Shown here: in pieces, positions 15,069-31,060 of the stretch
Position numbering within the stretch: position 1 is the first letter of the stretch
How the letters are laid out: every line of letters starts with the position of its first letter
The notes under the pieces: generated by a model
Told to the model about the DNA's origin: nothing
Databases searched by the model: none
The model's input: only the letters and a program-made list of their open reading frames with translations
Translations under genes and position numbers: made by a program
IMG/VR virus record: IMGVR_UViG_3300017992_000017
Location: 33,418 to 97,417 of that record
Reading direction: 5' to 3' (one strand)
DNA: 64,000 nt
DNA from: a virus
Lineage: Duplodnaviria > Heunggongvirae > Uroviricota > Caudoviricetes

Positions 15069-15289
15069 AGAGACTGAAGTTCTGCATCGGCGCGACCCTG
15101 TTCTGGTTGGGTCTGCCTTTTGCCGCTCTCTCCATCTTGATTATGTTTGCTCTCGGGGTGGTTGGTCTTCTGGGGATACTGGCCGTCATACTCCTCATGT
15201 CGTTTCCGTGTCTGGTGGGTGGTTGGTTGGCGACGGATGGTTGGTTGGAGAGGATCGAAGCCATGTCTGGTTTGGAGGACAAGGAGTGA
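15065..15289 (+). CDS. small membrane protein
   Basis: two hydrophobic helices (IGATLFWLGLPFAALSILIMFALGVVGLLGILAVILLMSF). Confidence 0.4.
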   Translation: MKRLKFCIGATLFWLGLPFAALSILIMFALGVVGLLGILAVILLMSFPCLVGGWLATDGWLERIEAMSGLEDKE

Positions 15290-15954
15290 AAACTGTCGCG
15301 TTCATGCCAATCAAGCTGAACAACCAGCGTCTCTCTGGGAAGAACACCCGGATGCTGAGAGACAAGCCGCTCTGCCAGTGGGCGCTGAACGAGTTGTTGG
15401 AGTTAAAGAACGACGAAGCGGTGGAGGAGGTCTACGTCTACTGCTCCGACCCTAAGATCGAGGACTATCTCCCGAACGGCGTGGAGCTGCTGTTGCGTAA
15501 CCCGTCGCTCGATCATCCACATGTCCAGGGTAATGACATCTACCGGTCGTTCATTGCCGAGGTACCTGCCGATCTGTACATGCTCCATCATGCGACCAGT
15601 CCCTTCGTCAAGGTTGAGACACTGTACCGGTGTCTTACTGCTGTGTCCTCTGGGAAGCACGACTCGGCCCTGACGGTCAAGGAGATGCACGGCCGGTTCT
15701 GGAGAAACAATGCTCCCGTGTGGCATGACCTGGAGACGGTGGGTCGGACGCAGGACATGACTCCCGTGTACTTCGAGACGGAGGCATGCTACGTCTTTCC
15801 TCCGTATCTTCTGGAGATTTACGGAAGACGGGTAGGGTTTAATCCATACCTGTGTCCCGTCGATGCGAAAGAAGCCATCGATATCGATACCCGGGACGAT
15901 TTTGAGCTGGCTCAGTGCGTGGCATGGCCGAGATATGCGTCAACTAACGGCTGA
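15286..15954 (+). CDS. CMP-sugar cytidylyltransferase (CMP-NeuAc/CMP-Kdo synthetase family)
   Basis: VAFMPIKLNNQRLSGKN (cf. IAIIPAR.GSKG..KN), downstream YVYCSDP, ATSPF; GTG start overlapping stop of upstream gene. Confidence 0.65.
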   Translation: MKTVAFMPIKLNNQRLSGKNTRMLRDKPLCQWALNELLELKNDEAVEEVYVYCSDPKIEDYLPNGVELLLRNPSLDHPHVQGNDIYRSFIAEVPADLYMLHHATSPFVKVETLYRCLTAVSSGKHDSALTVKEMHGRFWRNNAPVWHDLETVGRTQDMTPVYFETEACYVFPPYLLEIYGRRVGFNPYLCPVDAKEAIDIDTRDDFELAQCVAWPRYASTNG

Positions 15955-16669
15955 ATACGATCGACTCCGAGACTCCGTGATCTCCAGTACGAGCACGGAT
16001 GCACAGCTGGAGTGTTTGCACAACGCACACGCAGGGGAGACGGCATACCTGGTGGCTTGCGGACCGTCGACAGGACAGTACCGGGAGGAGTTTCTGCGGC
16101 AGCGACTGGCCAACGAACTGGTCATTGCCGTGAAGCAGGCCATGGATCTCGTACCGGGGATCGCTGACTATCACCTGATCAACGCCGTCAACCGGAAAGA
16201 GTACGACTACACACATCCCCGGCCGATCGTGATGTTCGTCTGCGAGATCGAACAGATGGTCCGGTGTCCGATGCTGCACGACGTTTACACCCCGAGACCA
16301 GGACGAGGGGACAAACACATCTACGTTAGCCAGAGCAAGGATTTCGACAGTTGGACGTTGGACAAGATCATTCGACGTCCTCTGGGTCCGACGATCGTGT
16401 TCACGCTGGGTATGTTCCTGGCCGTGCATCTTGGTGTGTCTCGGATCATCACGTTGGGTGTGGACATGGCGCCGGAGGACATGCGGCATTACTACCCGAG
16501 CAATCTGAATGAGGGACAGATCCTGCATTCGGAGTGGGAGGCCGGGTTGGTTCGGGATGCGCATGAGGACTGGGACCGGTGGTTGCGTAGCCGGGGTGTG
16601 AGGTGGTTACGTGCCGAGTCGGATGAACCCAACGGTTTTCCTTCAATCGAGGAGGTGAGTTTGTTGTGA
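15935..16669 (+). CDS. putative GT42/DUF115 (CstII/Maf-like) sialyltransferase-fold protein
   Basis: AYLVACGPSTGQY (cf. CstII IIAGNGPSLKEI) and TIVFTLGMFLAVHLGVSRIITLGVDM (cf. CstII TSGVYMCAVAIALGYKEIYLSGIDF). Confidence 0.45.
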   Translation: MRQLTAEYDRLRDSVISSTSTDAQLECLHNAHAGETAYLVACGPSTGQYREEFLRQRLANELVIAVKQAMDLVPGIADYHLINAVNRKEYDYTHPRPIVMFVCEIEQMVRCPMLHDVYTPRPGRGDKHIYVSQSKDFDSWTLDKIIRRPLGPTIVFTLGMFLAVHLGVSRIITLGVDMAPEDMRHYYPSNLNEGQILHSEWEAGLVRDAHEDWDRWLRSRGVRWLRAESDEPNGFPSIEEVSLL

Positions 16670-17031
16670 CAGCTAGGACAGTGGAGCAAACAACTAAGGA
16701 TTGGGGAACGGTGCGTACGCTATTCAATCGTGGCGATACGCGGGTGACTCTCATTGATGGACCACGAAAAGACCGGAACGAGGTTTGCTCGGAGCACGTT
16801 CACGCATATACGCATAACCTCTTCTTTGTGCTTCAGGGGTCGTTGGAGGTTCATTGCTGCAACCGAGGTGTGTGGAGCAACAACCTCCTCCAGCCTGGGG
16901 AGAGCTTTCTCGTACCGGCCGGGATGTGGCATTATTTCCGGATCCTAGAAGACCCTACCCAAGCCATCGAGATCTATTGGTCCGACAGCATGGAAAAGGA
17001 CATCGAACGGAGAAACGATGGCTCGAATTGA
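16666..17031 (+). CDS. cupin-domain protein (sugar isomerase/epimerase-like)
   Basis: two-His cupin motif HVHAYTHNLFFVLQGSLEV ... PAGMWHYF. Confidence 0.55.
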   Translation: MTARTVEQTTKDWGTVRTLFNRGDTRVTLIDGPRKDRNEVCSEHVHAYTHNLFFVLQGSLEVHCCNRGVWSNNLLQPGESFLVPAGMWHYFRILEDPTQAIEIYWSDSMEKDIERRNDGSN

Positions 17032-17527
17032 CCGGAAACAGATCGTTGCGTGGCTCCGACGTGCGTACCAGGTGGGGATGGATCAGTCGGATGACATGGA
17101 CACGAAGGTCGGTGCGATTCTGGTCGTGCCCTGGATGCCGGAGGACTGCGTTGAGGGTGCGAACCGGATACCTACAGGTCTCTCCCGTAGACCGTCGAGA
17201 AAGAAGCGACCCGACAAGTACCGGTATCTCGTCCACGCGGAGGAAGACTCGATCCTCCAAGCAGCCAAGCTCGGGAGGTCCACCAAGGGACTGACCATGA
17301 TCTGTCCGTGGGCGGCTTGTGCTCGGTGTAGTCGGATGATCGTGCAGGCCGGGATCAAACGGGTGATCAACCACAAGTCTTCCATGGACGCTACGCCAGA
17401 TCGATGGAAGGCCGACATCGAGCTGGGACATTCCATGCTGCGTGAGGCGAATGTTGATCTGATCACGTACGACGGTTGGGTTGAGGACGTGAAATCGAAA
17501 TTCGACGGAAAGGTTTGGTATCCATGA
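17018..17527 (+). CDS. dCMP/cytidine-deaminase-fold zinc deaminase
   Basis: HAEEDSILQAA ... MICPWAACARCSRMIVQAGIKRV (H-A-E and PC..C zinc ligands of CDA fold). Confidence 0.65.
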   Translation: MARIDRKQIVAWLRRAYQVGMDQSDDMDTKVGAILVVPWMPEDCVEGANRIPTGLSRRPSRKKRPDKYRYLVHAEEDSILQAAKLGRSTKGLTMICPWAACARCSRMIVQAGIKRVINHKSSMDATPDRWKADIELGHSMLREANVDLITYDGWVEDVKSKFDGKVWYP

Positions 17528-18126
17528 AGACCGTCGCAATCATCGGCAACTCACATCATCTCCTGGGATCACGTCTCGGGGACAAGATCAACTCGCATGA
17601 CGTGGTGATCCGACTGAACAGCTACAAACTGTATCCCTACCAGGCCGACGTAGGGACCAAGACGGACACCATCGTCCTTGTCCAAAATGCAGACAACAAC
17701 ATGCTGGCTCGCAAGGGGTTGTTGCCGGAGGAGCTCCAGACTTGCAACGAGCTCTGGTTCTCTCGTCCTCTTGGAGATCGTGGGGACATGGACAACGACA
17801 TGCGGGTCATCTTGAAAGCGATCGGCCGGTTCAAGGTGAAGGACTGTCGGTTTCCGGACTCGAAGGGTGTGAAGGAGCTCCGTGCCAAGCTGAACTCACC
17901 GTACTATCCGTCGACAGGGATAGTCACGATCTTCATGGTACTGGAAACGTACCCGGATGCTGACATTCGGATCGCTGGTTTCGGGGATCCACAGGAAACA
18001 GCGTTCAAAGAAGGACATTACTATCCGAACGTGCATGGTTTCAAGTGGATCCATGACGGTCTGGGTGAGCGTGCCTTGATCGATCACCTGGTAGACGAGG
18101 GGAAGATCTCGTGGCTGACGTCGTAG
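17515..18126 (+). CDS. GT29-like (eukaryotic-type) sialyltransferase homolog
   Basis: L-sialylmotif-like VAIIGNSHHLLGSRLGDKINSHDVVIRLNSYKLYPYQADVGTKTD (cf. CxVVGNSG.L..S.CG.EID.HDFVxRxNxAP..g.e.DVGsKTT) and S-sialylmotif-like PSTGIVTIFMVLETYPDADIRIAGFG. Confidence 0.6.
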   Translation: MVSMKTVAIIGNSHHLLGSRLGDKINSHDVVIRLNSYKLYPYQADVGTKTDTIVLVQNADNNMLARKGLLPEELQTCNELWFSRPLGDRGDMDNDMRVILKAIGRFKVKDCRFPDSKGVKELRAKLNSPYYPSTGIVTIFMVLETYPDADIRIAGFGDPQETAFKEGHYYPNVHGFKWIHDGLGERALIDHLVDEGKISWLTS

Positions 18127-19091
18127 CAATCATCCCGGCTCGTGGTGGGTCGGAGGGTGTGTGGAAGAAGAACCTGCAGAAGGTCGGTGGCGTGCCGTTG
18201 ATTGCGCGTGCCGTCCGTGCTGCCAAGGATGCTGTGTTGGTTGATAAGGTCGTGGTCTCGTCGGACGACAGCGAGATCCTGGACGTTGCGATAGGTGAGG
18301 GAGCGTCCATCTACTACCAGACTCCGGAGGTGAGTGGTCCGGACGATCTGCAGGAGAAAGCGATTCTTGAGTGGCTGGACGTGACAGGACGCACGGAAGG
18401 AACGCTGGCGATGCTCCAGTGTACGGCGCCGTTCATGACCGGTACGGACATAGATGGTGTGATTGTGGAGATGGACGTAAAGGAGGCTGACTGCTGTTTC
18501 GCTGCATGTCGGTTCCAGCATTTCATTTGGAGACACGACGGATCGAGGCAGGCATACGGGATCAATCACGACTCTTGGACGCGTCAGCAGAGACAGAACC
18601 GACACACGGAGTATTTAGAAGCTGGTAGCGTCTACGCTATGGATATCGCTGGGTTTTTGAAGCACAAACACCGGTTTTTCGGGAGGATCGCTATACACCA
18701 GGTGAATCCATCTCGCGTTTTTGAGATCGACACCTACGAGGAGCTGTTGTTAGCCAACCGGATCGCTGGGCTTCCCGAGCCGTTGTCTGGTCAGCGGGTG
18801 TTCGTGGACATCGACGAGACGATCTGCGAGACGCCATCGACCCGGGACTATACGAAGTCGACACCGAACTTGGACGCTATTGCCGAGATCAACCGGATGC
18901 GTGACCGGGGAGTTGTGGTCACCTATTGGACGGCGCGTGGTTCGGGGTGGCCTTCGGCGAGGGTTGAGGAGCTGACCAGGAGACAGATGAAGGAGTGGGG
19001 TGCCGAGTATGACTACCTGCTGTTCGGCAAACCTGTGTACGACCGGCTCTACGACGACAAGGCAGACTATCAGATACCGGGAGTCAACTGA
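18111..19091 (+). CDS. bifunctional CMP-sugar cytidylyltransferase / HAD-family phosphatase
   Basis: N-term VVAIIPARGGSEGVWKKN..LQCTAPF (NeuA/KdsB family); C-term FVDIDETICE ... TYWTARG (HAD DxDxT motif). Confidence 0.75.
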   Translation: MADVVAIIPARGGSEGVWKKNLQKVGGVPLIARAVRAAKDAVLVDKVVVSSDDSEILDVAIGEGASIYYQTPEVSGPDDLQEKAILEWLDVTGRTEGTLAMLQCTAPFMTGTDIDGVIVEMDVKEADCCFAACRFQHFIWRHDGSRQAYGINHDSWTRQQRQNRHTEYLEAGSVYAMDIAGFLKHKHRFFGRIAIHQVNPSRVFEIDTYEELLLANRIAGLPEPLSGQRVFVDIDETICETPSTRDYTKSTPNLDAIAEINRMRDRGVVVTYWTARGSGWPSARVEELTRRQMKEWGAEYDYLLFGKPVYDRLYDDKADYQIPGVN

Positions 19092-20147
19092 ATGACGGAC
19101 GTGAGGTTGGAAACGGGTGACTGTCGTGAAGTGATGTCGGCGTACGAGGAGAGCACGTTCACAGCGTGCGTGACCGATCCTCCCTACGAGCTGGGTTTCA
19201 TGGGTAAGGACTGGGACCAGGCCGGGGTTTCCTACGATTCCGAGACGTGGCGTGCCGTGTTACGTGTCTTGAAGCCGGGTGCGTTTCTCCTGGCGTTTGG
19301 GGGGACCAGGACGTACCACCGGATGACCTGCGCGATTGAAGATGCCGGGTTTGAGGTTCGGGACTGCATGATGTGGCTGTACGGGAATGGGTTTCCTAAG
19401 TCGCATAACATCTCGAAAGCGATCTCCAAATCAGGAGACAGAACAGCGTCTGACATGTGGGACGGCTACGGGACTGCTCTGAAACCCGCCTGGGAGCCGG
19501 TTGTTGTGGCCATGAAATCCTTGTCTGGGACGTTTGCGAAGAACGCTTTAGAGCAGAGGGTGGCTGGATTGAATGTTGATGGCGGGCGAGTGGAGTATGA
19601 GACCGGCGGCAGTCTCGCCAGCAATCCCTCCTTACGTCGCTCGGTCAAGGGTGGCAACGGCGGCCATATCATCGCCACAGAATCCGAAAGCCGCGAGATG
19701 GTTTCTCACGCCAAAGGCCGCTGGCCTGCGAACCTCCTGCTCGATGAAGAGTCGGGGGCGATGCTGGACAAGCAGAGCGGCGAGCGTCCGGGGTGTAGGT
19801 CGCGCAGCAACGCCAAGCCGGAGAGCAAGTTCCGACCCGGTCAAGGCGAGTACATGCCCCAAGGGCCAATCTACCCGGACACGGGCGGCGCGTCTCGGTT
19901 CTTCTACTGCGCCAAATCCAGCAAGAAAGAACGTGGCGAAGGAAACGACCACCCAACCGTCAAACCACTGAGACTGATGAAACATCTACTGACCCTCGTG
20001 ACTTACCCAGAGCAGAACCTGGTTCTCGACCCGTTCTGCGGATCTGGGACGACCCTACTAGCGTGCCGGGAGATGGGGTTGTCGTGCGTGGGTATCGACT
20101 CGGACCCACATGCTGTTGAAATCGCGGAAGCACGGGGAGTCAACTGA
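19092..20147 (+). CDS. DNA methyltransferase, beta-class (motif IV DPPY before motif I), probably N6-adenine
   Basis: CVTDPPYELGF (DPPY) near N-terminus; VLDPFCGSGTTLLAC (FxGxG AdoMet motif) near C-terminus. Confidence 0.85.
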   Translation: MTDVRLETGDCREVMSAYEESTFTACVTDPPYELGFMGKDWDQAGVSYDSETWRAVLRVLKPGAFLLAFGGTRTYHRMTCAIEDAGFEVRDCMMWLYGNGFPKSHNISKAISKSGDRTASDMWDGYGTALKPAWEPVVVAMKSLSGTFAKNALEQRVAGLNVDGGRVEYETGGSLASNPSLRRSVKGGNGGHIIATESESREMVSHAKGRWPANLLLDEESGAMLDKQSGERPGCRSRSNAKPESKFRPGQGEYMPQGPIYPDTGGASRFFYCAKSSKKERGEGNDHPTVKPLRLMKHLLTLVTYPEQNLVLDPFCGSGTTLLACREMGLSCVGIDSDPHAVEIAEARGVN

Positions 20148-21442: not shown

Positions 21443-22363
21443 ATGAAAGCCAAGAACGTCAAGTCAGTTATCCGTAGCAAGATCAACCATTTCCTGAAGC
21501 ATGTTCGGGACGAGGATGTCCGGAAGGTTCTGGAGAAGAACATCGTTGTTACTGGTGGAGCGATCGCGTCGCTGCTTCTCGGCGAAGAGGTGAACGATTT
21601 CGACATATATCTCCGGTCCAAGGAAGCTGCGTTGACGGTGGCTCAGCACTATGCAGCCGAGTTCGCCAATAATTCGCCACCCAGGCACCGCAATTCAAGC
21701 CAGAAATGCAACGTCGTCGTGGAGGAGCTGCCGGATCGCATACGCATCAAGGTCCAGTCAGCGGGCATTGCATCAGAGCAAGGCGACGAAGACTACGAGT
21801 ACTTCGAGACAACCAACCCCGAAGACGCCGACGCGCACGAGTATGTCAGCAAGGTACTGTCTATCGCACAAGATGCTGAGCCGGATAACGAGAAACCGAA
21901 ATACAGGCCGGTCTTCCGCACGGCCAACGCAATCACACTGAGCGACAAGGTCCAGATCGTGACCCGGTTCTTTGGCGAACCGGACGAGATCCACGAGAAC
22001 TACGACTTTGTACACGTCACCAACTACTGGACCAGCTGGGATAACAAATTGGTGCTTCGGCCGGATGCGATAGAGGCTCTCCTTGCTCGCGAGCTCCGGT
22101 ACGTCGGCAGTAAGTACCCCCTCTGTTCCGTGATCCGCACACGTAAGTTCATCCAGCGGGGGTGGGCCGTTACAGCTGGTCAGTACCTCAAGATGATTAT
22201 GCAGCTCCAGGAATTAGACCTGCATGACATACGTGTGCTGGAGGAGCAACTGACCGGTGTGGATGCAGCGTATTTTGATGAAGTCCTGGCTGCTCTGAAG
22301 AAGAAAGACGCGAAAAGGGTTGACGCGGCGTACTTGGTTGAGCTGATCGACAGGATCTTTTGA
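21443..22363 (+). CDS. putative Pol-beta-superfamily nucleotidyltransferase
   Basis: VVTGGAIASLLLGEEVNDFDIYL fits hG[GS]x9-13Dh[DE]h NTase signature. Confidence 0.4.
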   Translation: MKAKNVKSVIRSKINHFLKHVRDEDVRKVLEKNIVVTGGAIASLLLGEEVNDFDIYLRSKEAALTVAQHYAAEFANNSPPRHRNSSQKCNVVVEELPDRIRIKVQSAGIASEQGDEDYEYFETTNPEDADAHEYVSKVLSIAQDAEPDNEKPKYRPVFRTANAITLSDKVQIVTRFFGEPDEIHENYDFVHVTNYWTSWDNKLVLRPDAIEALLARELRYVGSKYPLCSVIRTRKFIQRGWAVTAGQYLKMIMQLQELDLHDIRVLEEQLTGVDAAYFDEVLAALKKKDAKRVDAAYLVELIDRIF

Positions 22364-22884
22364 TGCACGACACACTCTACAACCTCGAACTGGTGAGAGA
22401 AAAGCTAGACCTATGTGATCCTGACGTTTTTACCGAGGTGGTGCACAAGGAGACAAAGGCGCTGACCACGTATGCTCGTGATCTTGTCGGGGACGATCTT
22501 GCGCAGGACGTGGTACAAGAGGTTTGGTTGCATGCGTGGATGAAGCGACACGAGTACGATGGTAATCCCAAACTAATTCGTTGGTGGTTGTGTAGGTTTG
22601 CTTACTACTACGGACTGAAGATCCAGAGGGAGGAGGCACGACAGAGACACTACCATCTTTTCCCAGCCGAACCGGATCCGAAAGAACCTGTGGAAGATGT
22701 CGTGCTTTGTAGTCTCGTTGCGGAGTTTGTCCAGGGTCTTCCACCGAAACAGGAGCAAGCTGTACGTTTATGGTCCTTGGGATACACGTACAAAGAAATC
22801 GCTGGCCAGATGAACATCTCAGTCTCAGCTGCCACGTCGAATGTCAGTCTTGCACGTAAGAAGCTACACGAATTACTCAACTAA
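22360..22884 (+). CDS. sigma-70 family (ECF-like) RNA polymerase sigma factor
   Basis: region-2-like AQDVVQEVWLHAW and region-4 HTH PPKQEQAVRLWSLGYTYKEIAGQMNISVSAATSNVSLARKKL. Confidence 0.7.
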   Translation: MMHDTLYNLELVREKLDLCDPDVFTEVVHKETKALTTYARDLVGDDLAQDVVQEVWLHAWMKRHEYDGNPKLIRWWLCRFAYYYGLKIQREEARQRHYHLFPAEPDPKEPVEDVVLCSLVAEFVQGLPPKQEQAVRLWSLGYTYKEIAGQMNISVSAATSNVSLARKKLHELLN

Positions 22885-22896
22885 GCAGGAGCCTAC

Positions 22897-23457
22897 ATGA
22901 CGTTCGGACGTGACGACCCCGTTGACCTGACATCCCATGAAGTGTTTGAAGCCGTGGTTCGGAAGTACAAGAACTGGATGTACCGGCTGGCTGGCCAGTA
23001 TGTGGAGCAACCTGCCGACCAGGATGACGTTGTGCAGTATGCGTGGTTGATCGTGTGGCAGGGACGGCACAAGTATACCGGTCCTGTGGGTAAGCTCCCG
23101 TTCTGGTTGAAGAAAGCAATACGCTACGCCGCACTGAATATCTACCGACAGCACCAAAGATTCCCGATGACAGGCTGTGATTTCTCGCGGGAGATCGATC
23201 CGTGTGCAGCAGAACCGGCAGTAGGTAGGGAGAAGGCCGAGCAAACGGAGGATCAGCACCAGCAAATCGACCGTGCTATGGCAACATTTCGGTTTCTCCC
23301 CAAACAACAACGGAGTGTCGTCAGGTTACGGATGGAAGGTCTACGGAATGAGGATATCGCCAAGAAGATGCGCCTCTCCAAGTCGTGCGTAGGCTCCCAT
23401 CTTCATCGTGCCAGGAAGAAGATCCGGCGTGAGATCGAGGAATCTCCAACTCTCTAA
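22897..23457 (+). CDS. second sigma-70 family (ECF-like) sigma factor
   Basis: QDDVVQYAWLIVWQ (region 2) and LPKQQRSVVRLRMEGLRNEDIAKKMRLSKSCVGSHLHRARKKI (region 4). Confidence 0.7.
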   Translation: MTFGRDDPVDLTSHEVFEAVVRKYKNWMYRLAGQYVEQPADQDDVVQYAWLIVWQGRHKYTGPVGKLPFWLKKAIRYAALNIYRQHQRFPMTGCDFSREIDPCAAEPAVGREKAEQTEDQHQQIDRAMATFRFLPKQQRSVVRLRMEGLRNEDIAKKMRLSKSCVGSHLHRARKKIRREIEESPTL

Positions 23458-23485: not shown

Positions 23486-24463
23486 ATGGCTGACAAGAAC
23501 ACTTCCTACACAAGCGCTGACGTCCTACCGATCAAGGTAGTCCTCGATACCCAGACCGTGGACCATATCCGTCGTTACCGCAGGATTCCACCGATCCACG
23601 CTCAGGTCATCCCGACGAATCGCTGCAACAGAAACTGTCCAATGTGCAGCTGTAGCGAACGGACCAAGAACCACGAGATGGATCTGTTCGACGTCGAGAC
23701 CATAGCCAAGGATCTCCGTCGACTGGGGTGTCGAGCCGTGACGTTGACCGGGGGTGGTGAGCCGTTAGTGCATCCGCAGATCGTCGACATCATCCGGCTC
23801 TTTCACGTCCTGGATATCGAGATCGGGATGACCACCAACGGGATGCTGTTGCACGAGCTCCCCGAGGAGGTAGTCGAGCTGCTGACCTGGTGTCGGATCT
23901 CGAACGACGACTCCAGACACATGTCCCCTCTGTACATGGCCAGTCTCGACAAGGTGTTTGTGGGAAGCTCCGTAGGCTGGGGTTTTTCGCACGTGGTCTC
24001 CAAGACCCCTAACTTCGAGGAGATTGCCAGGGTTGTACGGTACGCCAACGAGTGGAAGATCACCCACGTTCGCCTCATCGCTGACCTGTTCGAGCCAAAG
24101 GCCGTCGATCTTACGAAGGTGCGGCAGTATCTCTATGAGGAAGGGATCGACGACTCCCGGGTCATCTACCAGAACCGCCAACAACCAGTCCGGGGAGGTC
24201 CTTGCTACATCGGGTACTTGAAACCCCTGATTTCTGCCGACTGCAAGGTATATGCGTGCTGTGGGGTGCAGTACGCGTTGGATCCCCCTACCCGTGACCT
24301 ACCTCCGGAACTCTGTATCGGGGACGCGTTGGACCTGGGTGCGCTCTATGACAGCAGCGACGTACAGCTCAACGGGGAGATATGCAAGACCTGTTACTAC
24401 GACAATTACAACAACCTTCTCGGGTCGCTCCTGAAAGACACCACGCACGAGGAGTTTGTATGA
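23486..24463 (+). CDS. radical SAM enzyme with C-terminal Cys-rich (SPASM/twitch-like) extension
   Basis: CNRNCPMCSC (Cx3Cx2C), TLTGGGEPLVHP glycine-rich SAM motif; C-terminal CYIGY..CKVYACCG..C..C..CKTC. Confidence 0.75.
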   Translation: MADKNTSYTSADVLPIKVVLDTQTVDHIRRYRRIPPIHAQVIPTNRCNRNCPMCSCSERTKNHEMDLFDVETIAKDLRRLGCRAVTLTGGGEPLVHPQIVDIIRLFHVLDIEIGMTTNGMLLHELPEEVVELLTWCRISNDDSRHMSPLYMASLDKVFVGSSVGWGFSHVVSKTPNFEEIARVVRYANEWKITHVRLIADLFEPKAVDLTKVRQYLYEEGIDDSRVIYQNRQQPVRGGPCYIGYLKPLISADCKVYACCGVQYALDPPTRDLPPELCIGDALDLGALYDSSDVQLNGEICKTCYYDNYNNLLGSLLKDTTHEEFV

Positions 24464-25143
24464 CCTTCGCTATCATCTCCGGTGCTCGATCTGGCACGCA
24501 CATGCTCCGACTGGCGTTGTCGCAGCATCCGGACATCCACGTCTCTCACGAGTTGTTGAATCCTGATCGTTTAGGACACCGGTTTGGCGAGGAGACAGCG
24601 GAGACGATCATCCGGGAGTGGCAGCAAGAGCACTACCGGGAGGTCAAACAGCTAGGGTCTTTGTTGCATCGGGATCTTTACAACCGATCGGAGGAGATAC
24701 CTGGCGACCCCTGGAGAGATGTTCGTCGGAGTCACGCCAAGTTTATCAGCCTCTACCGGTACAACCTCCTCCGCAAGGTTCTCTCCGGGAGGACTGCGTT
24801 TGTCCACAAGAACTGGCAGTGCACGTCTCCCAGGACCAAGGAGTTGCCACCTATCACTCTGGATCCGGACCATCTTGAATCACATTGTCGCAAGGAGTGG
24901 AGGTCTTTCGGTCTGGTGGACGCGAGACTGCCACGTCACTTCGTCATCTCTTATGAAGATCTGGTGAGTGACTGGACGTATCACACGATGGCCATGCAGG
25001 AGTATTTGGGGGTGACGCCGGTTCAGCTCCACCCCCGAACTCACAAACAAGAAACACGCAGCCTCCGGGAAGCCATTGCGAACTACGACGAGATAGCTGA
25101 CCGGGTTTGTGAAATGGGTTGCGAAGACTGGTTAGAGGAGTAG
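24460..25143 (+). CDS. putative Stf0-like sulfotransferase
   Basis: N-terminal FAIISGARSGTHML (cf. Stf0 LASQRSGSTLL PAPS-binding loop); C-terminal ISYEDLV. Confidence 0.45.
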   Translation: MTFAIISGARSGTHMLRLALSQHPDIHVSHELLNPDRLGHRFGEETAETIIREWQQEHYREVKQLGSLLHRDLYNRSEEIPGDPWRDVRRSHAKFISLYRYNLLRKVLSGRTAFVHKNWQCTSPRTKELPPITLDPDHLESHCRKEWRSFGLVDARLPRHFVISYEDLVSDWTYHTMAMQEYLGVTPVQLHPRTHKQETRSLREAIANYDEIADRVCEMGCEDWLEE

Positions 25144-25145
25144 TC

Positions 25146-25892
25146 ATGCCAACTGTTAGCGTAATCTTGACGTCCCACAACCACGGACCGTTTCTGCGTC
25201 AAGCCATCGAGAGCGTGCTGGCTCAGACGTACACGGACTTCGAGCTATTGATTCTGGATGATGCGTCTACGGATGGGTCAGCAGACATTGCACGGGAGTA
25301 TGTCGGATCCAACGCCTTTCTCCAGGACTACCAAGAAAAGGCATCCAGTCTCGGGGTTGTCCTGAACCGTAGCATTCGTCTGGCTCGTGGAGACTACTGG
25401 GTCTGGGCACCTTCAGATGACGTGCTCAAACCGGATCTCCTAGAGAAGAAGATGGCCACGGCACAGGAGCATCCCGGCGCCGTCCTCTACTCAGACTGGG
25501 AGTACATCAATGAGCGGGGGGACGTGACCGGGACCAAACGTCTACCGGAATGGACCGCCGAGGATATCGCAAGGATGGTGTGGGAGAAGTCCATGCTCGG
25601 GTTCACCGGCATCTGGATACCCATGTCCGTCTTCGATGAGGTGGGGAACTGGCCGACGCACATGCTCTTCTCCGAGGACTTCTCCTGGTTCGTTCGAGCT
25701 ACGATCCACGGAATACCTTTCATCAACTGTCCTGAGGTCCTCTTCCAGAAACGGCTCAACCCTCTGCAGACAGCCAGTAAGGTCGGGACGAAACGCATCC
25801 TTGAGCTGGTACCCGCAATCCATAGTGAGCTCCGTTGGTACCAACATCTCTACCAACAACACCATCCTGACTACGAGGTGCCGAGTCAATGA
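25146..25892 (+). CDS. family-2 glycosyltransferase
   Basis: VSVILTSHNHGPFLRQAIESVLAQTYTDFELLILDDASTDGS (GT2 N-terminal signature with DDxS). Confidence 0.8.
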   Translation: MPTVSVILTSHNHGPFLRQAIESVLAQTYTDFELLILDDASTDGSADIAREYVGSNAFLQDYQEKASSLGVVLNRSIRLARGDYWVWAPSDDVLKPDLLEKKMATAQEHPGAVLYSDWEYINERGDVTGTKRLPEWTAEDIARMVWEKSMLGFTGIWIPMSVFDEVGNWPTHMLFSEDFSWFVRATIHGIPFINCPEVLFQKRLNPLQTASKVGTKRILELVPAIHSELRWYQHLYQQHHPDYEVPSQ

Positions 25893-26728
25893 GGGTTGTC
25901 TTCTTCTGGGGAACGTCTCCGTTGTCGTGGATGAGGTACGCCACGATCGCCAGCTTCCGGAAACTCAATCTGGACTGGGAGATCGAGCTGTATCTCTACC
26001 ACCACCAGCACGTCAAGAAGTACTGGACCGACTCCCCGGTGCAGGATTTTTCCGAGTACCGAGGAGCCGACTACTTTCCTTTGCTCACGGACCTTGGTGT
26101 TCGGGTCATTCCGTGGGAGTTGCCGGAGGAGCTGCAGGACAAGAAGCACGTCATCGGTCCTTCCCACGCCAGTAACTTCTTCAAGTGGAGCTGGCTGTCC
26201 GAGAACGTGGGTGTCTACTGCGACCTGGACATCCTCTGGACGTCCCCGCTTACGGACTGGCTTGACTGGGTGGCCACGTACGATGCTGCTCTTGCTTACA
26301 CGCCGGAGTACTTCTCGATCGGCCTTCTCTGGTCGGGACAGCAGCCGAACCCCGTCTACAAGGATATCCTGGCCGAGAGTTACCGCACCTTCACGCACAC
26401 CAAGTACCAGAGTGCCGGGGTCGTGGCACTCTATCGGTTACTGCAGAAGTTCGACCCAGCGTACCGTGAGCACCCGTGGGATAAGGATCTGCTCGCGAGG
26501 TACGACAACGCATACCTCTTCGACATGGACTGGGTCTATCCTTGGCGATTCAACCAGATGGAGGAGGTTTTCAACAAGAAGCACGAGGTCATCCCACCGA
26601 TGTGCAAGGGGATCCACTGGTACGCCGGGTCTCCAATCGCACAGAAGTACAACAACCTGATCACCGAGGACACGTTGGATCAGTACGACAATACGTTCAC
26701 CCATTTCGCGAGACGGGTCCTTGGTTGA
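25889..26728 (+). CDS. GT32-like (DXD, Gly_transf_sug-type) glycosyltransferase, paralog A
   Basis: FFWGTSPLSWMRY...FFKWSWLSENVGVYCDLDILW (DxD); paralogous to next ORF. Confidence 0.6.
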   Translation: MRVVFFWGTSPLSWMRYATIASFRKLNLDWEIELYLYHHQHVKKYWTDSPVQDFSEYRGADYFPLLTDLGVRVIPWELPEELQDKKHVIGPSHASNFFKWSWLSENVGVYCDLDILWTSPLTDWLDWVATYDAALAYTPEYFSIGLLWSGQQPNPVYKDILAESYRTFTHTKYQSAGVVALYRLLQKFDPAYREHPWDKDLLARYDNAYLFDMDWVYPWRFNQMEEVFNKKHEVIPPMCKGIHWYAGSPIAQKYNNLITEDTLDQYDNTFTHFARRVLG

Positions 26729-27536
26729 TCCTAAGAAACATATCGTCTTCTTCTGGTCCGGTCGTTCGCTGTCTTGGCTGCGATACCTGACGATCTACTC
26801 GTTTCGTGTCCTGAACCCGGAGTGGAAGATCTCCCTGTACCTGTGTCATACGAGTCTGGTGACGACTTGGCTCGATCATAACCGTCTCGACTTCAGTGAG
26901 TATGAAGGTGAGGACTATCTTCCCAGGCTCCAGTTTCTAGGGGTCGATGTCCAGCAGTGGGAGTTGCCTCCGGAGATCTGTAGTGCCACACCTCCCCACG
27001 CGTGCGATCTATTCGAGTGGCAGTGGCTGTCGGAGAACGTCGGGTACTACGCCGACATGGACATCCTGTGGGTCCGACCGATGAAGGTCCCGGACTCTGA
27101 TGCAGCGATTGTGTACGGCAAGCAATTCAGTATCGGCTTGGTGTGGTCGGGTGTGGCTCCGAATCCTATGTTCCGGGACATCTACCAGGAGAGCCTCCGT
27201 ACGTACACACCCGCCGTCTACCAGAGTGCCGGGGTCGTTCCCATCTACCAGCTCTTAGGACATTCCGGTCCCGAGGTTGACCTGTCCATACCCTGGTTCG
27301 AGCGATTACGAGAGAAGTATCCCACGGTCTCCAAGCTGCCGTTCCCCATGATTCATCCGTGGGATCATGAGCAGCTGGAAGCCATGTACGACGAGCTACA
27401 TACCGAGGTACCAACAGACTGTGTCGGAATTCATTGGTACGGTGCTGCTCCAAGGTCCCAGACGTTCAACCAGGAATACGGACCGAGGACGCAGCAGGAT
27501 AATACGCTAAGTCATTTTGCGAGACGGGTGGCATGA
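26721..27536 (+). CDS. GT32-like glycosyltransferase, paralog B (tandem duplicate)
   Basis: FFWSGRSLSWLRY...LFEWQWLSENVGYYADMDILW; colinear with paralog A, both end ..FTHFARRV. Confidence 0.6.
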   Translation: MVDPKKHIVFFWSGRSLSWLRYLTIYSFRVLNPEWKISLYLCHTSLVTTWLDHNRLDFSEYEGEDYLPRLQFLGVDVQQWELPPEICSATPPHACDLFEWQWLSENVGYYADMDILWVRPMKVPDSDAAIVYGKQFSIGLVWSGVAPNPMFRDIYQESLRTYTPAVYQSAGVVPIYQLLGHSGPEVDLSIPWFERLREKYPTVSKLPFPMIHPWDHEQLEAMYDELHTEVPTDCVGIHWYGAAPRSQTFNQEYGPRTQQDNTLSHFARRVA

Positions 27537-28303
27537 AACCCCTGGTGTCCGTGGTGGTGGCGACACGCAACAAGGACAAGATCCTGGCCAAGGTGCTGGC
27601 TAGTATCTACCGTCAGTCGTGTGCCTATCCCTTGGAGGTCGTGGTCGTTGATGACGGATCCACGGACAACACCCGGGAGACCTGCCTCGCGTACCCGGAC
27701 TTGCGATACATCAGGTTGGAGGGTGGGGAGTACCGAAACTCCTGCTTTGCTCGAAACTGTGGGTACTGGGCAGCGAACGGCATGGCGTTGGTACTGCAGT
27801 CGGATGATGTGGTGCATGTCTCCGAGCGTGCCGTCGAGAAGCTGGTCGATCGGTTGGGACCTGGCGAGTTTACGATTGCCACGGTCTACAACTACGACCC
27901 CGAGACCAACGCACCGGTCCTGATGTACACGGGGACGGGATGGAAGCGACCGTTCTTCTTCCTGGGAGCGATACGGACCGAGGACATCTATGCAGTCGGT
28001 GGGAATGAGGAGGAGCTATTGGATGTGGGGGTTGGGTTCGATGATACGTGGTTGGCCGACTGTCTCACGCTAGGACAAGGACTAACCCCGGTATTTATGC
28101 ACACCGTTCTTGGATATCACCAGAATCACCGTCCCCTGATCCCCGGCATCATGAGGGAGAAACACGCCGACGCGAAACTCTGGTACGAGGCAAAGGTGCG
28201 TACGGGAAGGTTCGTGACCTCTACCGGCGCGTGGACAGAACGAATGGATCCTGACGAATGGGTACGGCATTATCACGTGTGTCAAGATCTATCGAGGTAC
28301 TAA
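27533..28303 (+). CDS. family-2 glycosyltransferase
   Basis: VSVVVATRNKDKILAKVLASIYRQSCAYPLEVVVVDDGSTDNT. Confidence 0.75.
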   Translation: MKPLVSVVVATRNKDKILAKVLASIYRQSCAYPLEVVVVDDGSTDNTRETCLAYPDLRYIRLEGGEYRNSCFARNCGYWAANGMALVLQSDDVVHVSERAVEKLVDRLGPGEFTIATVYNYDPETNAPVLMYTGTGWKRPFFFLGAIRTEDIYAVGGNEEELLDVGVGFDDTWLADCLTLGQGLTPVFMHTVLGYHQNHRPLIPGIMREKHADAKLWYEAKVRTGRFVTSTGAWTERMDPDEWVRHYHVCQDLSRY

Positions 28304-28403: not shown

Positions 28404-29279
28404 ATGAGCACCACGATCGTAGCTGAGATCGGGATCAATCACAACGGCTGTCTCGCATTCGCCAAAGAGATGATCGACGCAGCGTATGAGGCTGGTGCCG
28501 ACGTGGTGAAATTCCAGAAGCGTACCCTGCCTGCCGCCGTTCCCATCCACCAGCGACACGCACTCAAAGAGACGCCTTGGGGACAGATGACGTACCTCGA
28601 CTACCGAAACAAGCTGGAGTTCGGGTTCGAGGAGTACTGCACCCTCGATCGGTGGTGTGCCAGGTACCCGATCTCCTGGACTGCGTCGGTGTGGGATGCG
28701 GAGGCTGCCAAGTTCATCGCTCAGTTTGACGTGCCGTACCTCAAGATCCCCTCAGCTGCCATTACGGACGCTCGACTCCTAGATGTCGTACGAGCCACGG
28801 GTAAGCCGGTCGTGATGAGCACCGGCATGTCCACGCTGGAGGAGGTAGACGCTGCGATCAACGTGCTCATGGGTAGCCGGTACTGTGACGGAGACTCCTG
28901 CCGTCGTACGCGTCAGCTACCACCGGCTCAGCTCACGCTCCTGCATTGTGTGAGCACCTATCCGACAGCCATCCCAGACATCAACCTCCGGGTCATGGAC
29001 ACGCTACGAGCTCACACGGGACTCCCAGTAGGCTATTCAGGACACGAGGTAGGGATGGCTGTGAGTATTGCCGCTGTTGCTCGTGGTGCCTGCATGATCG
29101 AGAGACACTTCACCACGTCGCAGACCATGTGGGGTACGGATCAGCGAGCATCTATGGAGCCGGGGGATTTTGCTGCACTGGTCAACGGTATCCGATCGGT
29201 GGAGAGAGCACTCGGTGATGGGGTGAAGATTGTCTGCACCCGAGAACTTCCTATTCGACAGAAGCTACGGGGTGTGTGA
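28404..29279 (+). CDS. neuB: NeuB-family nonulosonic acid (sialic-acid-like) synthase, catalytic domain only (no SAF domain)
   Basis: IVAEIGINHNGCLAFAKEMIDAAYEAGADVVKFQ, VVMSTGMSTLEEV, LLHCVSTYP, GYSGHEVG, IERHFT, end LGDGVK colinear with NeuB/PseI; ORF stops where SAF domain would begin. Confidence 0.85.
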   Translation: MSTTIVAEIGINHNGCLAFAKEMIDAAYEAGADVVKFQKRTLPAAVPIHQRHALKETPWGQMTYLDYRNKLEFGFEEYCTLDRWCARYPISWTASVWDAEAAKFIAQFDVPYLKIPSAAITDARLLDVVRATGKPVVMSTGMSTLEEVDAAINVLMGSRYCDGDSCRRTRQLPPAQLTLLHCVSTYPTAIPDINLRVMDTLRAHTGLPVGYSGHEVGMAVSIAAVARGACMIERHFTTSQTMWGTDQRASMEPGDFAALVNGIRSVERALGDGVKIVCTRELPIRQKLRGV

Positions 29280-29566
29280 TGACTACCGTTATGTCCAATA
29301 CGCTGTTCGACATCGTCTCCGAGATCCACGAGAGGCTACAGCAACAGATCGACGAGGGGGTTGTCAGATGGGAAGTGCTCGATACCGGAGGAGCAGCACC
29401 AGTACCGTGTGGGGTCGTCTTTCGGTACGAGTTTGTGTGGAACAATCACAAATACATATGGAAACATGCTTTCTCAGCCATCGAGCTCCTGTGTTGTCCG
29501 GATCCTATCTGGGTGGCTGAGTGGTTGGCCGATAGCTGGTTGCATGATGCTAAGGCTGTGAAATGA
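29276..29566 (+). CDS. hypothetical protein
   Basis: 96-aa ORF with start overlapping neuB stop. Confidence 0.35.
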   Translation: MMTTVMSNTLFDIVSEIHERLQQQIDEGVVRWEVLDTGGAAPVPCGVVFRYEFVWNNHKYIWKHAFSAIELLCCPDPIWVAEWLADSWLHDAKAVK

Positions 29567-30423
29567 AGATTGTCCACTACAAGAAGACCCCCCTGGCTTA
29601 CGCTCCGGACTGGTTGTCGATGGCAATCAACAAGTACTCGGAGCATGAGTCTTCGGTCGTCACGTATCCGAAGCAGCTCCCCAAGCCAGCCAAGGATACG
29701 GTCGTCCATTTTCACAACCGGTTCGTCCCCTACGCCGGTCCCTGTCTGATCCAATACCATTCGGAGCCAGACGAACCGAACCTGATGCATCCGAAAGACC
29801 ACCCCACCGCTCCAGAACGTCGGTTGGTGGTGGCTCATTATCACCCCACGCTCCCCGAATACAAGGACATGCACCCGGTCCGTAACGTGGTGGACTTCAG
29901 ACGTCCTCAGTTTGCATACACCCCGGTTCGGAAGTTCAAGGTCGGTTACTCTCCCTCAGTCACGCGTCGGATCAGCAGGTGGTACGACAAGGGATATGAG
30001 AAGACAGTACAGATCCTCCAGCGTGTTGCCAAAGAAGTCCCGGAGATGGAGGTCGACATTATTGCCGGGGTTTGTCTGGATGAGTGTCTCCGGCGTAAAC
30101 GGGACTGCTCCGTGCTGATCGATGAGTGCGTGACCGGGAGCTATCATCGGAGTGGACTGGAAGGACTGGCGTTGGGGAAGGTGACGATAGCCGGTATGGA
30201 TGCTGCCGTGGTTGATGTGTTTCAGAACGTGTCGGGATCTGTTCTGATTCCGTTTACGATCTGTGGCATCGACTACCTGTGCAACAAGCTGATCCGTCTG
30301 TCCAAGGATATTGATGCGTTGAGAGAACGAGGACTGCACAACCGGCAGTGGTTTGAGAATTTCTGGGCGCCTGAACAGATCGTGGCCGAGTACGTGGAGC
30401 ACTACAAGGAGGTGCTGGCATGA
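29563..30423 (+). CDS. putative GT1/GT4-fold glycosyltransferase
   Basis: C-terminal SYHRSGLEGLALGKVTIAGMDAAV resembles GT4 E.FG...lEAmA.G.PVI block. Confidence 0.45.
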   Translation: MKIVHYKKTPLAYAPDWLSMAINKYSEHESSVVTYPKQLPKPAKDTVVHFHNRFVPYAGPCLIQYHSEPDEPNLMHPKDHPTAPERRLVVAHYHPTLPEYKDMHPVRNVVDFRRPQFAYTPVRKFKVGYSPSVTRRISRWYDKGYEKTVQILQRVAKEVPEMEVDIIAGVCLDECLRRKRDCSVLIDECVTGSYHRSGLEGLALGKVTIAGMDAAVVDVFQNVSGSVLIPFTICGIDYLCNKLIRLSKDIDALRERGLHNRQWFENFWAPEQIVAEYVEHYKEVLA

Positions 30424-31055: not shown

Positions 31056-31060
31056 CCGTG

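What the first reader, a model, noticed from the sequence alone, without database searches (positions are those of the whole stretch)
17515..18126. Eukaryotic-type (GT29) sialyltransferase-like protein with recognisable L- and S-sialylmotifs
VAIIGNSHHLLGSRLGDKINSHDVVIRLNSYKLYPYQADVGTKTD aligns residue-for-residue with the animal sialyltransferase L-motif (C.VVGNSG.L..S.CG.EID.HDFV.R.N.AP...f..DVG.KTT). PSTGIVTIFMVLETYPDADIRIAGFG aligns with the S-motif (PSTG....l.Al..Cd.V..YGF). GT29 enzymes are essentially eukaryotic (plus a few animal viruses); a 203-aa minimal version in a phage-like element would be a remarkable case of convergence or transfer and a compact model enzyme. The conserved L-motif cysteine is absent (VAIIG rather than C.VVG), consistent with a cytoplasmic, disulfide-free variant.
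Basis: partly seen in the sequence, partly recalled or inferred. Interest (0 to 1): 0.8.

Follow-up and report, generated by a model that had tools for sequence, protein, structure and literature searches.

The report
Phage-encoded minimal GT29 sialyltransferase-like enzyme
A phage genome carries a compact, soluble relative of animal sialyltransferases together with its own genes for making and activating a sialic-acid-like sugar; the enzyme family call is correct, but such bacterial and phage versions are already catalogued, so this is an interesting but not unprecedented member.

The parts
17524..18126 (+). GT29-family (sialyltransferase-like) glycosyltransferase, 200 aa, soluble, cysteine-pair-free. 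An alternative TTG start at 17515 would give 203 aa.
17533..17667 (+). Sialylmotif L (residues 4-48: VAIIGNS...GDKINSHDVVIRLN...DVGTKTD), the donor (CMP) binding motif. N9 and N32 align with Asn150 and Asn173 of porcine ST3Gal-I. The animal Cys is replaced by V4.
   Evidence: Family-wide conserved residues G8, G19, I22, D26, R30, N32, G44.
17908..17985 (+). Sialylmotif S (residues 129-154: PSTGIVTIFMVLETYPDADIRIAGFG). S130/T131 align with Ser271/Thr272 of ST3Gal-I. The animal Cys is replaced by Y143.
   Evidence: G132 and G152 are invariant or nearly so in the family.
18016..18027 (+). Sialylmotif III (H165-Y166-Y167-P168). Aligns with His302-Tyr303-Trp304 of ST3Gal-I.
   Evidence: Alignment. 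Y166 invariant and H165 conserved (77/102 short members). Motif definition from PMC8433944.
18052..18069 (+). Sialylmotif VS (H177-D-G-L-G-E182 = H-x4-E). H177 aligns with the catalytic-base His319 of ST3Gal-I, and E182 with Glu324.
   Evidence: alignment. His kept in 98/102 and Glu in 94/102 short family members. Roles from PMC8433944.
18111..19091 (+). Fusion of a CMP-nonulosonate synthetase (NeuA/CMAS-type N-domain, about residues 1-220) with a small HAD-like domain (residues about 226-326, nt 18786-19091, motif DIDET). Its start overlaps the GT29 stop.
   Evidence: PF02348 E=1.5e-16. PDB NeuA/CMAS hits 5e-23 to 5e-16. C-domain: 9iqw E=3.5e-10 and 1xpj, phrog_1238. The C-domain co-travels with GT29 in 8 of 38 loci.
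28404..29279 (+). NeuB-family nonulosonic acid synthase, 291 aa, without the C-terminal SAF domain.
   Evidence: PF03102 E=9.8e-78. TIGR03569 NeuB_NnaB 271 bits, above PseI at 180 bits, both below equivalog cutoffs, matching profile positions 2-274 of 329. PDB NeuB/SiaC about 1e-29 to 4e-31.
15286..15954 (+). Second CTP_transf_3 cytidylyltransferase-like gene. The longest ORF starts at 15208; gene callers start at 15286.
   Evidence: PF02348 E=6.9e-9. Weak PseF/KdsB similarity. Called as 222 aa on L001.
15977..16669 (+). Possible second ulosonic-acid transferase-like protein (weak MptE-like/Maf-type signal).
   Evidence: PF01973 E=4.9e-4, below cutoff. phrog_4603 'alpha-2,3-sialyltransferase' E=0.003. 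hhalign to the GT29 family gives only 4% probability. No PDB sequence hit. MptE-like genes accompany GT29, NeuB and CTP_transf_3 on L046.
16666..17031 (+). Small cupin protein in the same overlapping gene string; role unknown.
   Evidence: PF07883 E=3.6e-10.
23486..28303 (+). Downstream glycan-modification block: radical SAM, sulfotransferase-like, GT2, DXD-like ORF, unknown ORF, GT2.
   Evidence: Pfam hits. Gene calls on L001.
29563..30423 (+). Unknown 286-aa protein downstream of NeuB. Homologues lie near GT29-like genes in three other viral loci.
   Evidence: tblastn hits in L016, L017, L029. No Pfam or PDB match.

Best explanation
The gene encodes a prokaryote/phage-type member of glycosyltransferase family GT29. 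It is a roughly 200-residue soluble catalytic core with no membrane anchor, stem or structural disulfide.

Proposed mechanism:
- It most likely works in the infected cell's cytoplasm as an inverting, metal-independent transferase.
- It binds a CMP-activated nine-carbon ulosonic (sialic-acid-like) sugar through motif L (N9, N32), motif S (S130, T131) and motif III (H165).
- It uses H177 of the H-x4-E motif as the general base to deprotonate an acceptor hydroxyl.
- The donor is supplied by phage genes: NeuB (28404-29279) makes the nonulosonate, possibly as a 9-phosphate that the small HAD-like domain removes. The NeuA-type domain of the adjacent fusion protein (18111-19091) then activates it with CTP.
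- The acceptor is not identified. The likeliest is a glycan built by the co-encoded GT2, sulfotransferase-like and radical-SAM enzymes, on a host envelope structure or on virion proteins.

Shown: family membership, motifs, fold, absence of anchor and cysteines, gene neighbourhood and its recurrence. Inferred: donor identity, the phosphatase step, catalytic roles, acceptor and biological purpose.
For: Family: PF00777 at 79.9 bits against cutoff 23; full-length alignment to ST3Gal-I.

Catalytic residues:
- H177/E182 align with His319/Glu324, S130/T131 with Ser271/Thr272, and H165 with His302 (with chain index +45; residue names and motif definitions in PMC8433944).
- VS His is conserved in 98/102 short members and Glu in 94/102.

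Soluble form: max Kyte-Doolittle 1.01, starts at motif L, both Cys columns substituted.

Pathway in the window: NeuB E=1e-77; NeuA-type N-domain; HAD-like C-domain with DIDET. The genes overlap start-to-stop.

Recurrence in divergent elements (GC 17-69%):
- P0158 loci: GT29 - small domain - CTP_transf_3 - NeuB.
- P0152 locus: NeuB - GT29.
- Huge phage LR756508.1: NeuB + four GT29-like matches + small domain.
- L011: GT2 - GT29 - CTP_transf_3 - GT8 - NeuB.
- L046: two GT29 + NeuB + CTP_transf_3 + two MptE-like.
- At least one pathway gene lies within 8 kb in 15 of 38 loci, even by single-sequence tblastn.

The same gene order occurs on four independent contigs.
Against: - No biochemical data exist for any prokaryotic or phage GT29. 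Petit et al. state that function could not be predicted.
- NeuB is 10 kb from the GT29 gene in this window, not adjacent.
- NeuB and both cytidylyltransferases score below NCBIfam equivalog cutoffs, so the sugar (Neu5Ac, legionaminic acid, Kdn or other) is unresolved.
- No NeuC-type epimerase was detected in the window.
- Position 4 of motif III is Pro rather than D/E/q/g.
- The putative acceptor-binding middle of the model (residues about 51-130) has pLDDT of only 56-82.
- The AF2 alignment included animal GT29 sequences, so the fold match is not independent of sequence homology.
- In 23 of 38 related loci no pathway gene was detected nearby by tblastn.
Confidence: 0.8

Rival explanations
1. 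It transfers a different CMP-activated ulosonic acid, for example the eight-carbon Kdo or a related sugar, rather than a nine-carbon sialic-acid-like sugar. This has been proposed for plant GT29-like proteins.
For: - Two CTP_transf_3 genes are present, and the family includes KdsB. Weak KdsB-model hits were seen for both.
- The exact sugar is unresolved because all models score below equivalog cutoffs.
- Petit et al. assign plant GT29 groups 'likely to other functions' (abstract).
Against: - NeuB, a nine-carbon synthase, is what co-travels with GT29-like genes.
- No KdsA-type synthase was detected.
- The adjacent cytidylyltransferase is closest to CMP-Neu5Ac synthetases in PDB (5e-23 to 5e-16), against 1.6e-4 for KdsB.
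Confidence: 0.1
2. It decorates phage DNA: a sugar is added to a hydroxymethylated base as anti-restriction hypermodification.
For: - The gene lies between a dCMP deaminase (17018-17527) and an N6/N4 DNA methylase (19092-20147).
- A C5-cytosine methylase lies at 838-2124.
- Phage glycosyltransferases are known to hypermodify 5hmC made by C5-MT plus TET-like enzymes (bioRxiv 10.1101/2023.12.21.572611).
- ORF 16-825, next to the C5-MT, is unannotated.
Against: - No TET/JBP dioxygenase or hydroxymethylase was detected.
- That paper contains no mention of sialic or nonulosonic sugars, CMP donors or GT29.
- In 38 related loci the DNA-metabolism genes never co-travel with GT29. Only sugar-pathway genes, a GT2 and the unknown ORF 29563-30423 do.
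Confidence: 0.05
3. It is a degenerate or non-catalytic remnant, or a chance motif resemblance, without transferase activity.
For: The protein is about 70-100 residues shorter than mammalian catalytic domains. Its central region is modelled with lower confidence. It has no PHROG or NCBIfam family.
Against: - E=2.8e-22 to PF00777.
- All four motifs and the catalytic His/Glu are retained, and strongly conserved across 102 short homologues.
- The product is identical on four contigs.
- It is embedded in an overlapping operon with pathway genes.
Confidence: 0.03

Closest known systems
Bacterial GT29 sialyltransferase-like sequences (Petit et al. 2018, Sci Rep 8:2946, PMC5811610)
   Same: All four sialylmotifs (L, S, III, VS) are present, with no transmembrane domain and no L/S disulfide cysteines. 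The query's nearest relatives are of this cysteine-free type. One 194-aa homologue is named GT29 by NCBI in a Phenylobacterium MAG.
   Different: The published set came from alpha-, gamma- and epsilon-proteobacterial genomes and one archaeon. This one is in a phage-type genome with its own NeuB/NeuA pathway. I did not compare directly with the 21-23 published accessions. None of them has been tested biochemically.
Mammalian GT29 sialyltransferases, e.g. porcine ST3Gal-I (PDB 2WNB/2WNF), ST6GalNAc2, ST8SiaIII, ST6Gal1
   Different: Only 20-25% identity. The query lacks the N-terminal tail, TM anchor and stem (cysteine-pair members have a median of about 100 residues before the domain, against 6). 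It lacks both conserved cysteines and about 70-100 residues of acceptor-binding elaborations. It is cytoplasmic rather than Golgi-lumenal.
Already-catalogued viral GT29 proteins: A0A6J5NLG3 (uncultured Caudovirales phage), A0A8S5UAA1 (Myoviridae sp.), A0A5B8IFN6 (Mimiviridae sp. ChoanoV1); 35 IMG/VR contigs
   Same: Same predicted fold (Foldseek E 1.5e-10 to 7e-8). Short forms of 170-220 aa exist. Relatives in viral contigs often sit with NeuB, CTP_transf_3 and other glycosyltransferases.
   Different: Only about 20-30% identical to the query. They are database annotations only; I found no paper that discusses or tests a phage GT29.
Animal-virus sialyltransferases (e.g. squirrelpox Q1HTP7, chelonid alphaherpesvirus 5)
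   Same: Virus-encoded GT29 fold.
   Different: These are 320-400 aa and are named after animal sialyltransferase classes (one as ST6Gal-type). The phage protein belongs to the cysteine-free prokaryotic/viral group.
GT42 bacterial sialyltransferases (Campylobacter Cst-I/Cst-II)
   Same: Related GT-A variant 2 fold, CMP-sialic acid donor, catalytic His, soluble bacterial enzymes.

Membership tests
CAZy GT29 / Pfam PF00777 (Glyco_transf_29) | Significant match to the family profile above the curated threshold | tested here: met
   E=2.8e-22, 79.9 bits against gathering cutoff 23; it is the only family hit at E<=1.
CAZy GT29 / Pfam PF00777 (Glyco_transf_29) | Sialylmotif L (donor binding) | tested here: met
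   Residues 4-48 align to the ST3Gal-I L motif, including GNS and R-x-N. The motif's cysteine is absent (see the Golgi-type rows).
CAZy GT29 / Pfam PF00777 (Glyco_transf_29) | Sialylmotif S (PSTG ... GFG) | tested here: met
   P129-S130-T131-G132 ... G152-F153-G154 align with PSTG ... GFG of ST3Gal-I. G132 is invariant in the family.
CAZy GT29 / Pfam PF00777 (Glyco_transf_29) | Motif III (H/y)-Y-(Y/W/F/h)-(D/E/q/g) | tested here: met
   H165-Y166-Y167 fit; the fourth position is Pro, outside the human consensus. I count this as met on three of four positions.
CAZy GT29 / Pfam PF00777 (Glyco_transf_29) | Motif VS, H-x4-E, with catalytic His | tested here: met
   H177-DGLG-E182 aligns with His319...Glu324 of ST3Gal-I. 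Conserved in 98/102 and 94/102 short homologues.
CAZy GT29 / Pfam PF00777 (Glyco_transf_29) | GT-A variant 2 sialyltransferase fold | tested here: met
CAZy GT29 / Pfam PF00777 (Glyco_transf_29) | Transfer of sialic acid from a CMP-activated donor | not testable with these tools
   Supported only by context: phage-encoded NeuB and NeuA-type genes that co-travel with the family.
Eukaryotic Golgi-type GT29 (type II membrane sialyltransferases) | N-terminal cytoplasmic tail, TM anchor and stem region | tested here: not met
   The protein begins at motif L, and max KD(19) is 1.01. Cysteine-pair members have a median of 99.5 residues before the domain.
Eukaryotic Golgi-type GT29 (type II membrane sialyltransferases) | Invariant L-motif/S-motif cysteine pair forming the essential disulfide | tested here: not met
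   V4 and Y143 occupy the two cysteine columns. The feature is defined in PMC8433944.
Prokaryote-type GT29 (Petit et al. 2018) | Four sialylmotifs present, but no TM domain and no conserved L/S cysteines | tested here: met
   Nearest relatives are all of this type.
Prokaryote-type GT29 (Petit et al. 2018) | Phylogenetic placement with the published bacterial GT29 clade | not tested
   The published accessions were not retrieved and no tree was built. There is only score-ranking evidence and an NCBI-named bacterial MAG homologue.
GT42 (Cst-I/Cst-II type bacterial sialyltransferases) | Sequence membership in the GT42 family | tested here: not met
Maf / MptE-like (PF01973, DUF115) nonulosonate transferases | Match to PF01973 or closest fold to Maf | tested here: not met

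The most novel reading that the evidence does not exclude
Phages and giant viruses carry a portable, self-contained sialylation cassette that mirrors the four eukaryotic steps. These are a NANS-like NeuB without a SAF domain, a small HAD phosphatase acting on a nonulosonate-9-phosphate, a CMAS-like synthetase (here fused to that HAD domain) and a GT29 transferase. Viruses would use it to sialylate their own virions or the host envelope, and would be the vehicles that moved GT29 between bacteria, giant viruses and early eukaryotes. This 200-aa disulfide-free enzyme would then be the minimal ancestral-type GT29 catalytic core.
Probability: 0.15. Interest if true: 0.7.

Novelty: new member of a known kind. 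Interest (0 to 1): 0.4.

Why it matters
No prokaryotic or phage GT29 has been characterised, and their function was explicitly left open by the paper that discovered them. Bacterial GT29 is nevertheless placed at the root of the eukaryotic sialyltransferase tree.

This phage enzyme is small (200 aa), soluble and free of structural disulfides. Its presumed donor pathway is encoded in the same genome, so it is a practical first target for biochemistry and crystallography of the ancestral-type GT29 core. It could also be a bacterially expressible sialyltransferase scaffold for glycoengineering.

Biologically, it points to phage-directed addition of sialic-acid-like sugars to an unknown target: the host envelope, the virion or, less likely, DNA. 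That would be relevant to receptor masking and immune or defence evasion. None of this is unique to this window, because hundreds of similar sequences exist in public data.

Tried and rejected
- **Single-sequence AlphaFold model:** pLDDT 40.9, unusable. Replaced by an MSA-based model.
- **Word-indexed homologue search with the single protein:** found only itself. The exhaustive representative search was needed.
- **The search for related loci:** failed with the 47-sequence alignment in both collections, and with the 8-sequence alignment in genome contigs. No survey of named bacterial genomes was therefore obtained. The single-protein scan of IMG/VR found nothing.
- **afdb50 fold library:** unavailable.
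- **P0004** (1976 aa, third-best phmmer hit): a false positive. It is a tandem-repeat protein not matched by the family profile.
- **Upstream ORF 15863-16669 as a second GT29:** rejected. hhalign probability is 4%, and it is at best a weak MptE-like protein.
- **DNA-hypermodification reading:** considered and given low weight. No TET or hydroxymethylase was found, and there is no co-travel with DNA genes.
- **Sugar identity:** could not be resolved from NeuB/NeuA subfamily models, which all score below cutoffs, or from PDB scores, which do not discriminate.
- **Host:** could not be inferred. The DNA polymerase is only about 30% identical to those of cultured phages, and nucleotide similarity is limited to a methylase fragment.
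- **PDB 9iqw** (closest structure to the small HAD-like domain): no paper in the library.
- **Literature searches for a described phage GT29:** found none.
Full report
**Observation**

The more probable start is ATG 17524, giving 200 aa. It overlaps the stop of the upstream gene (ATGA), has a GGAAAGG ribosome-binding site, and is the start chosen by gene callers on four independent metagenome contigs that carry an identical product in the same gene order. The stop at 18126 overlaps the GTG start (18111) of the next gene. The gene is therefore one link in a tightly packed + strand string.

**Family membership**

- Pfam PF00777 (Glyco_transf_29) matches with E=2.8e-22 and 79.9 bits against a gathering cutoff of 23. 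No other Pfam family hits at E<=1.
- phmmer against PDB sequences finds only GT29 enzymes. Porcine ST3Gal-I aligns over residues 4-179 at E=1.8e-7.
- A single-sequence AlphaFold model was useless (pLDDT 40.9). With a 36-sequence alignment the model reaches pLDDT 80.3 and pTM 0.83, with more than 90 over the motif-bearing segments.
- Foldseek's top 30 PDB hits are all mammalian GT29 enzymes from the four subfamilies.
- Caveat: the alignment used for modelling contained animal GT29 sequences, so the fold result corroborates the sequence homology rather than being independent of it.

**Motifs and catalytic residues**

Motif III is H165-Y166-Y167-P168. Motif VS is H177-DGLG-E182, which has exactly the H-x4-E spacing. 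The motif definitions, and the statement that the VS histidine is the catalytic base of an inverting SN2 mechanism, come from PMC8433944.

I converted the chain indices to ST3Gal-I numbering by adding 45. This offset places the VS His at 319, the Glu at 324 and the S-motif Thr at 272, which are the residues that paper names for 2WNB. The resulting map is N9=Asn150, N32=Asn173, Y128=Tyr269, S130=Ser271, T131=Thr272, H165=His302, H177=His319 and E182=Glu324. The specific donor-binding roles of Asn150, Asn173, Ser271 and His302 are from my own knowledge of the ST3Gal-I structure paper, not from a tool result.

Across 102 short full-length family members, the VS His is kept in 98 and the Glu in 94. 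This argues for a conserved catalytic function.

**What kind of GT29**

- The protein begins at motif L, with no N-terminal tail, anchor or stem. It has no TM-grade hydrophobic segment (max KD 1.01).
- V4 and Y143 occupy the columns of the two cysteines that form the essential L-S disulfide in animal enzymes.
- This is a family-wide trait. In the 102 short members the L-cysteine column is V or I in 79 and C in 7, and the commonest residues in the S-cysteine column are aromatic or aliphatic, not Cys. 23 of 77 longer proteins have both cysteines.
- Cysteine-pair proteins have a median of about 100 residues before the domain. Cysteine-free proteins have 6.
- Ranking by phmmer score, the query's 19 best-scoring relatives (18 once the false positive P0004 is set aside) all lack the cysteine pair. 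The first cysteine-pair protein is 20th, at 62 against 106 bits.

The protein is therefore a member of a large prokaryotic/viral GT29 group. It is not a convergent look-alike and not a recent capture from a eukaryote.

**Genomic setting**

The window is a phage-type genome segment. PHROG hits include:
- family A DNA polymerase (E=4e-143), a processivity factor, SSB, a UvsX-like recombinase and SbcCD;
- several DNA methyltransferases and an integrase;
- phage-only families of unknown function.

There is no close cultured relative, and the element is absent from IMG/VR.

Around the target, the + strand genes are:
- a CTP_transf_3 gene (15286-15954);
- a weak MptE-like ORF (15977-16669);
- a cupin and a dCMP deaminase;
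- the GT29 gene;
- a fusion of a NeuA/CMAS-type cytidylyltransferase with a small HAD-like domain (18111-19091);
- an N6/N4 DNA methylase.

Further downstream lie two ECF sigma factors, a radical SAM enzyme, a sulfotransferase-like protein, two GT2 enzymes and, at 28404-29279, a NeuB nonulosonate synthase (E=9.8e-78) lacking the SAF domain. The genome thus encodes synthesis, activation and transfer steps for a sialic-acid-like sugar.

**Recurrence elsewhere**

The association is not peculiar to this phage.
- P0158 (28% identical) lies on 50-66 kb contigs in the order GT29, a 102-aa homologue of the small HAD-like domain, CTP_transf_3, NeuB. This sits within a large sugar-modification block.
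- P0152 (31% identical) lies directly after NeuB.
- The 484-kb uncultured phage LR756508.1 has four GT29-like matches, a NeuB and the small domain within 5 kb.
- An IMG/VR scan found 35 viral contigs with relatives, 11 of them giant-virus MAGs.
- In 15 of 38 loci at least one of NeuB, a NeuA-like gene or the small domain lies within 8 kb, by insensitive tblastn.
- On L011, Pfam adds a cytidylyltransferase that tblastn had missed. The order there is GT2, GT29, CTP_transf_3, GT8, NeuB, two methyltransferases, small domain.
- The contig of the NCBI-named Phenylobacterium MAG homologue carries two GT29 genes, NeuB, CTP_transf_3, two MptE-like genes and a NeuC-type epimerase.
- Another contig has three tandem GT29 genes beside GT25 and capsule-type transferases.

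These loci span 17-69% GC. With the window they share only the sugar-pathway genes, one GT2 and the unknown ORF 29563-30423.

**Most likely mechanism**

The enzyme is a cytoplasmic, metal-independent, inverting transferase. It takes a CMP-nonulosonate made by the phage's NeuB and NeuA-type enzymes and transfers the sugar to an acceptor hydroxyl, with H177 as base.

The small HAD-like domain has a DIDET nucleophile motif. It is similar to PDB 9iqw ('capsule biosynthesis protein') and 1xpj, and it co-travels with the cassette. This suggests, but does not show, a route through a phosphorylated intermediate, as in the eukaryotic NANS/NANP pathway.

The sugar itself is unresolved. NeuB scores higher on the Neu5Ac-synthase model than on PseI (271 against 180 bits), but both are below the equivalog cutoffs.

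The acceptor is unknown. Co-travel with other glycosyltransferases, methyltransferases and a sulfotransferase-like gene favours a composite glycan on the host envelope or on virion proteins.

A DNA-modification role is suggested only by the adjacent dCMP deaminase and DNA methylases and by a distant C5-methylase. It lacks a TET or hydroxymethylase partner, finds no support in the published DNA-glycosylation work, and those DNA genes do not co-travel with GT29 elsewhere.

**Comparison with the known, and novelty**

- Petit et al. 2018 (PMC5811610) reported 21-23 bacterial GT29 sequences and one archaeal sequence. These have all four sialylmotifs, no TM domain and no L/S cysteines, and sit basal to eukaryotic GT29. 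The authors stated that function could not be predicted.
- NCBI already names such proteins GT29.
- BFVD/UniProt lists 'Glycosyl transferase family 29 [uncultured Caudovirales phage]', a 170-aa Myoviridae protein and a ChoanoV1 entry among the best structural matches.
- I found no paper that discusses or tests a phage GT29.

The finding is therefore a correctly identified new member of a known, catalogued but biochemically untested kind. Its value lies in two things. It is a compact, soluble candidate for the first characterisation of ancestral-type GT29. And a NeuB / small HAD domain / NeuA / GT29 cassette recurs across phages and giant viruses.

**Scores**

Interest is 0.4. The most novel reading not excluded is a portable viral sialylation cassette that mirrors the eukaryotic pathway and spreads GT29 between domains. 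I give that a probability of about 0.15, with interest 0.7 if true.

Noticed in passing
window 18111-19091 (C-domain about 18786-19091); L005 10600-10908; L010 11010-11297; L011 13095-13352: A small (~100 aa) HAD-like domain with a DIDET motif is fused to the NeuA-type synthetase here. It occurs as a free-standing gene next to GT29/NeuB in other viral loci (8 of 38, at 34-52% identity, better conserved than GT29 itself). It has no Pfam family; its closest structures are 9iqw and 1xpj. The NeuA+HAD architecture parallels vertebrate CMAS, but I could not show that the C-domains are the same HAD subfamily.
   Followed up: partly
window 29563-30423: An unknown 286-aa ORF just downstream of NeuB has homologues near GT29-like genes in three other viral loci (L016, L017, L029). 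It has no Pfam, PHROG or PDB match. It is a conserved partner of unknown function.
   Followed up: partly
window 15977-16669: This ORF has weak MptE-like/Maf and 'alpha-2,3-sialyltransferase' PHROG signals. By eye it carries an ACGPSTG and an RHYYPSN motif, the latter resembling the GT29 protein's GHYYPNV. It may be a second ulosonic-acid transferase. MptE-like genes accompany GT29/NeuB on L046.
   Followed up: partly
L010 (LR756508.1 322072-326830); L047 10001-12014; proteins P0003, P0008, P0111: GT29-like genes occur as tandem arrays: four matches in a 484-kb uncultured phage and three genes on L047. They also occur as two or three GT29 domains fused in single proteins of 700-1350 aa.
   Followed up: partly
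window 22360-22884 and 22897-23457: Two adjacent ECF-type sigma factor genes lie between the GT29 cluster and the radical-SAM/GT2/NeuB block. They may drive expression of the glycan genes.
   Followed up: no
window 21443-22363: The precomputed annotation of the identical gene on L001 lists PF26128 (Gad2). My own Pfam scan did not reproduce it at E<=0.01; only a weak PolyA_pol head-domain signal appeared.
   Followed up: partly
window 838-2124, 19092-20147, 16-825: A C5-cytosine DNA methylase and an N6/N4 DNA methylase are both present. The ORF immediately upstream of the C5 methylase has no detectable family.
   Followed up: partly
window 59417-60175 and 60646-61650: A tRNA-His guanylyltransferase (Thg1-like) PHROG match (E=3e-39) lies next to a tyrosine integrase.
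   Followed up: no
window 11767-11835 and 31060-31134: ARAGORN reports a tRNA-like gene with an abnormal two-base anticodon loop call, and a tRNA-Thr(TGT).
   Followed up: no
window 42509-43525 (- strand): This ORF has OCRE / PKAT_KLD-type repeat matches. An overlapping ORF (42859-43902) has a weak baseplate PHROG hit. The - strand block from about 34 to 55 kb consists mostly of phage-only unknown families, and GC skew changes sign at about 34 kb and about 55 kb.
   Followed up: no
protein P0004 (rank 4): A 1976-aa tandem-repeat protein scored 92.7 bits by phmmer through 16 weak stretches, but the family profile does not match it. It is a false positive in the representative search.
   Followed up: yes
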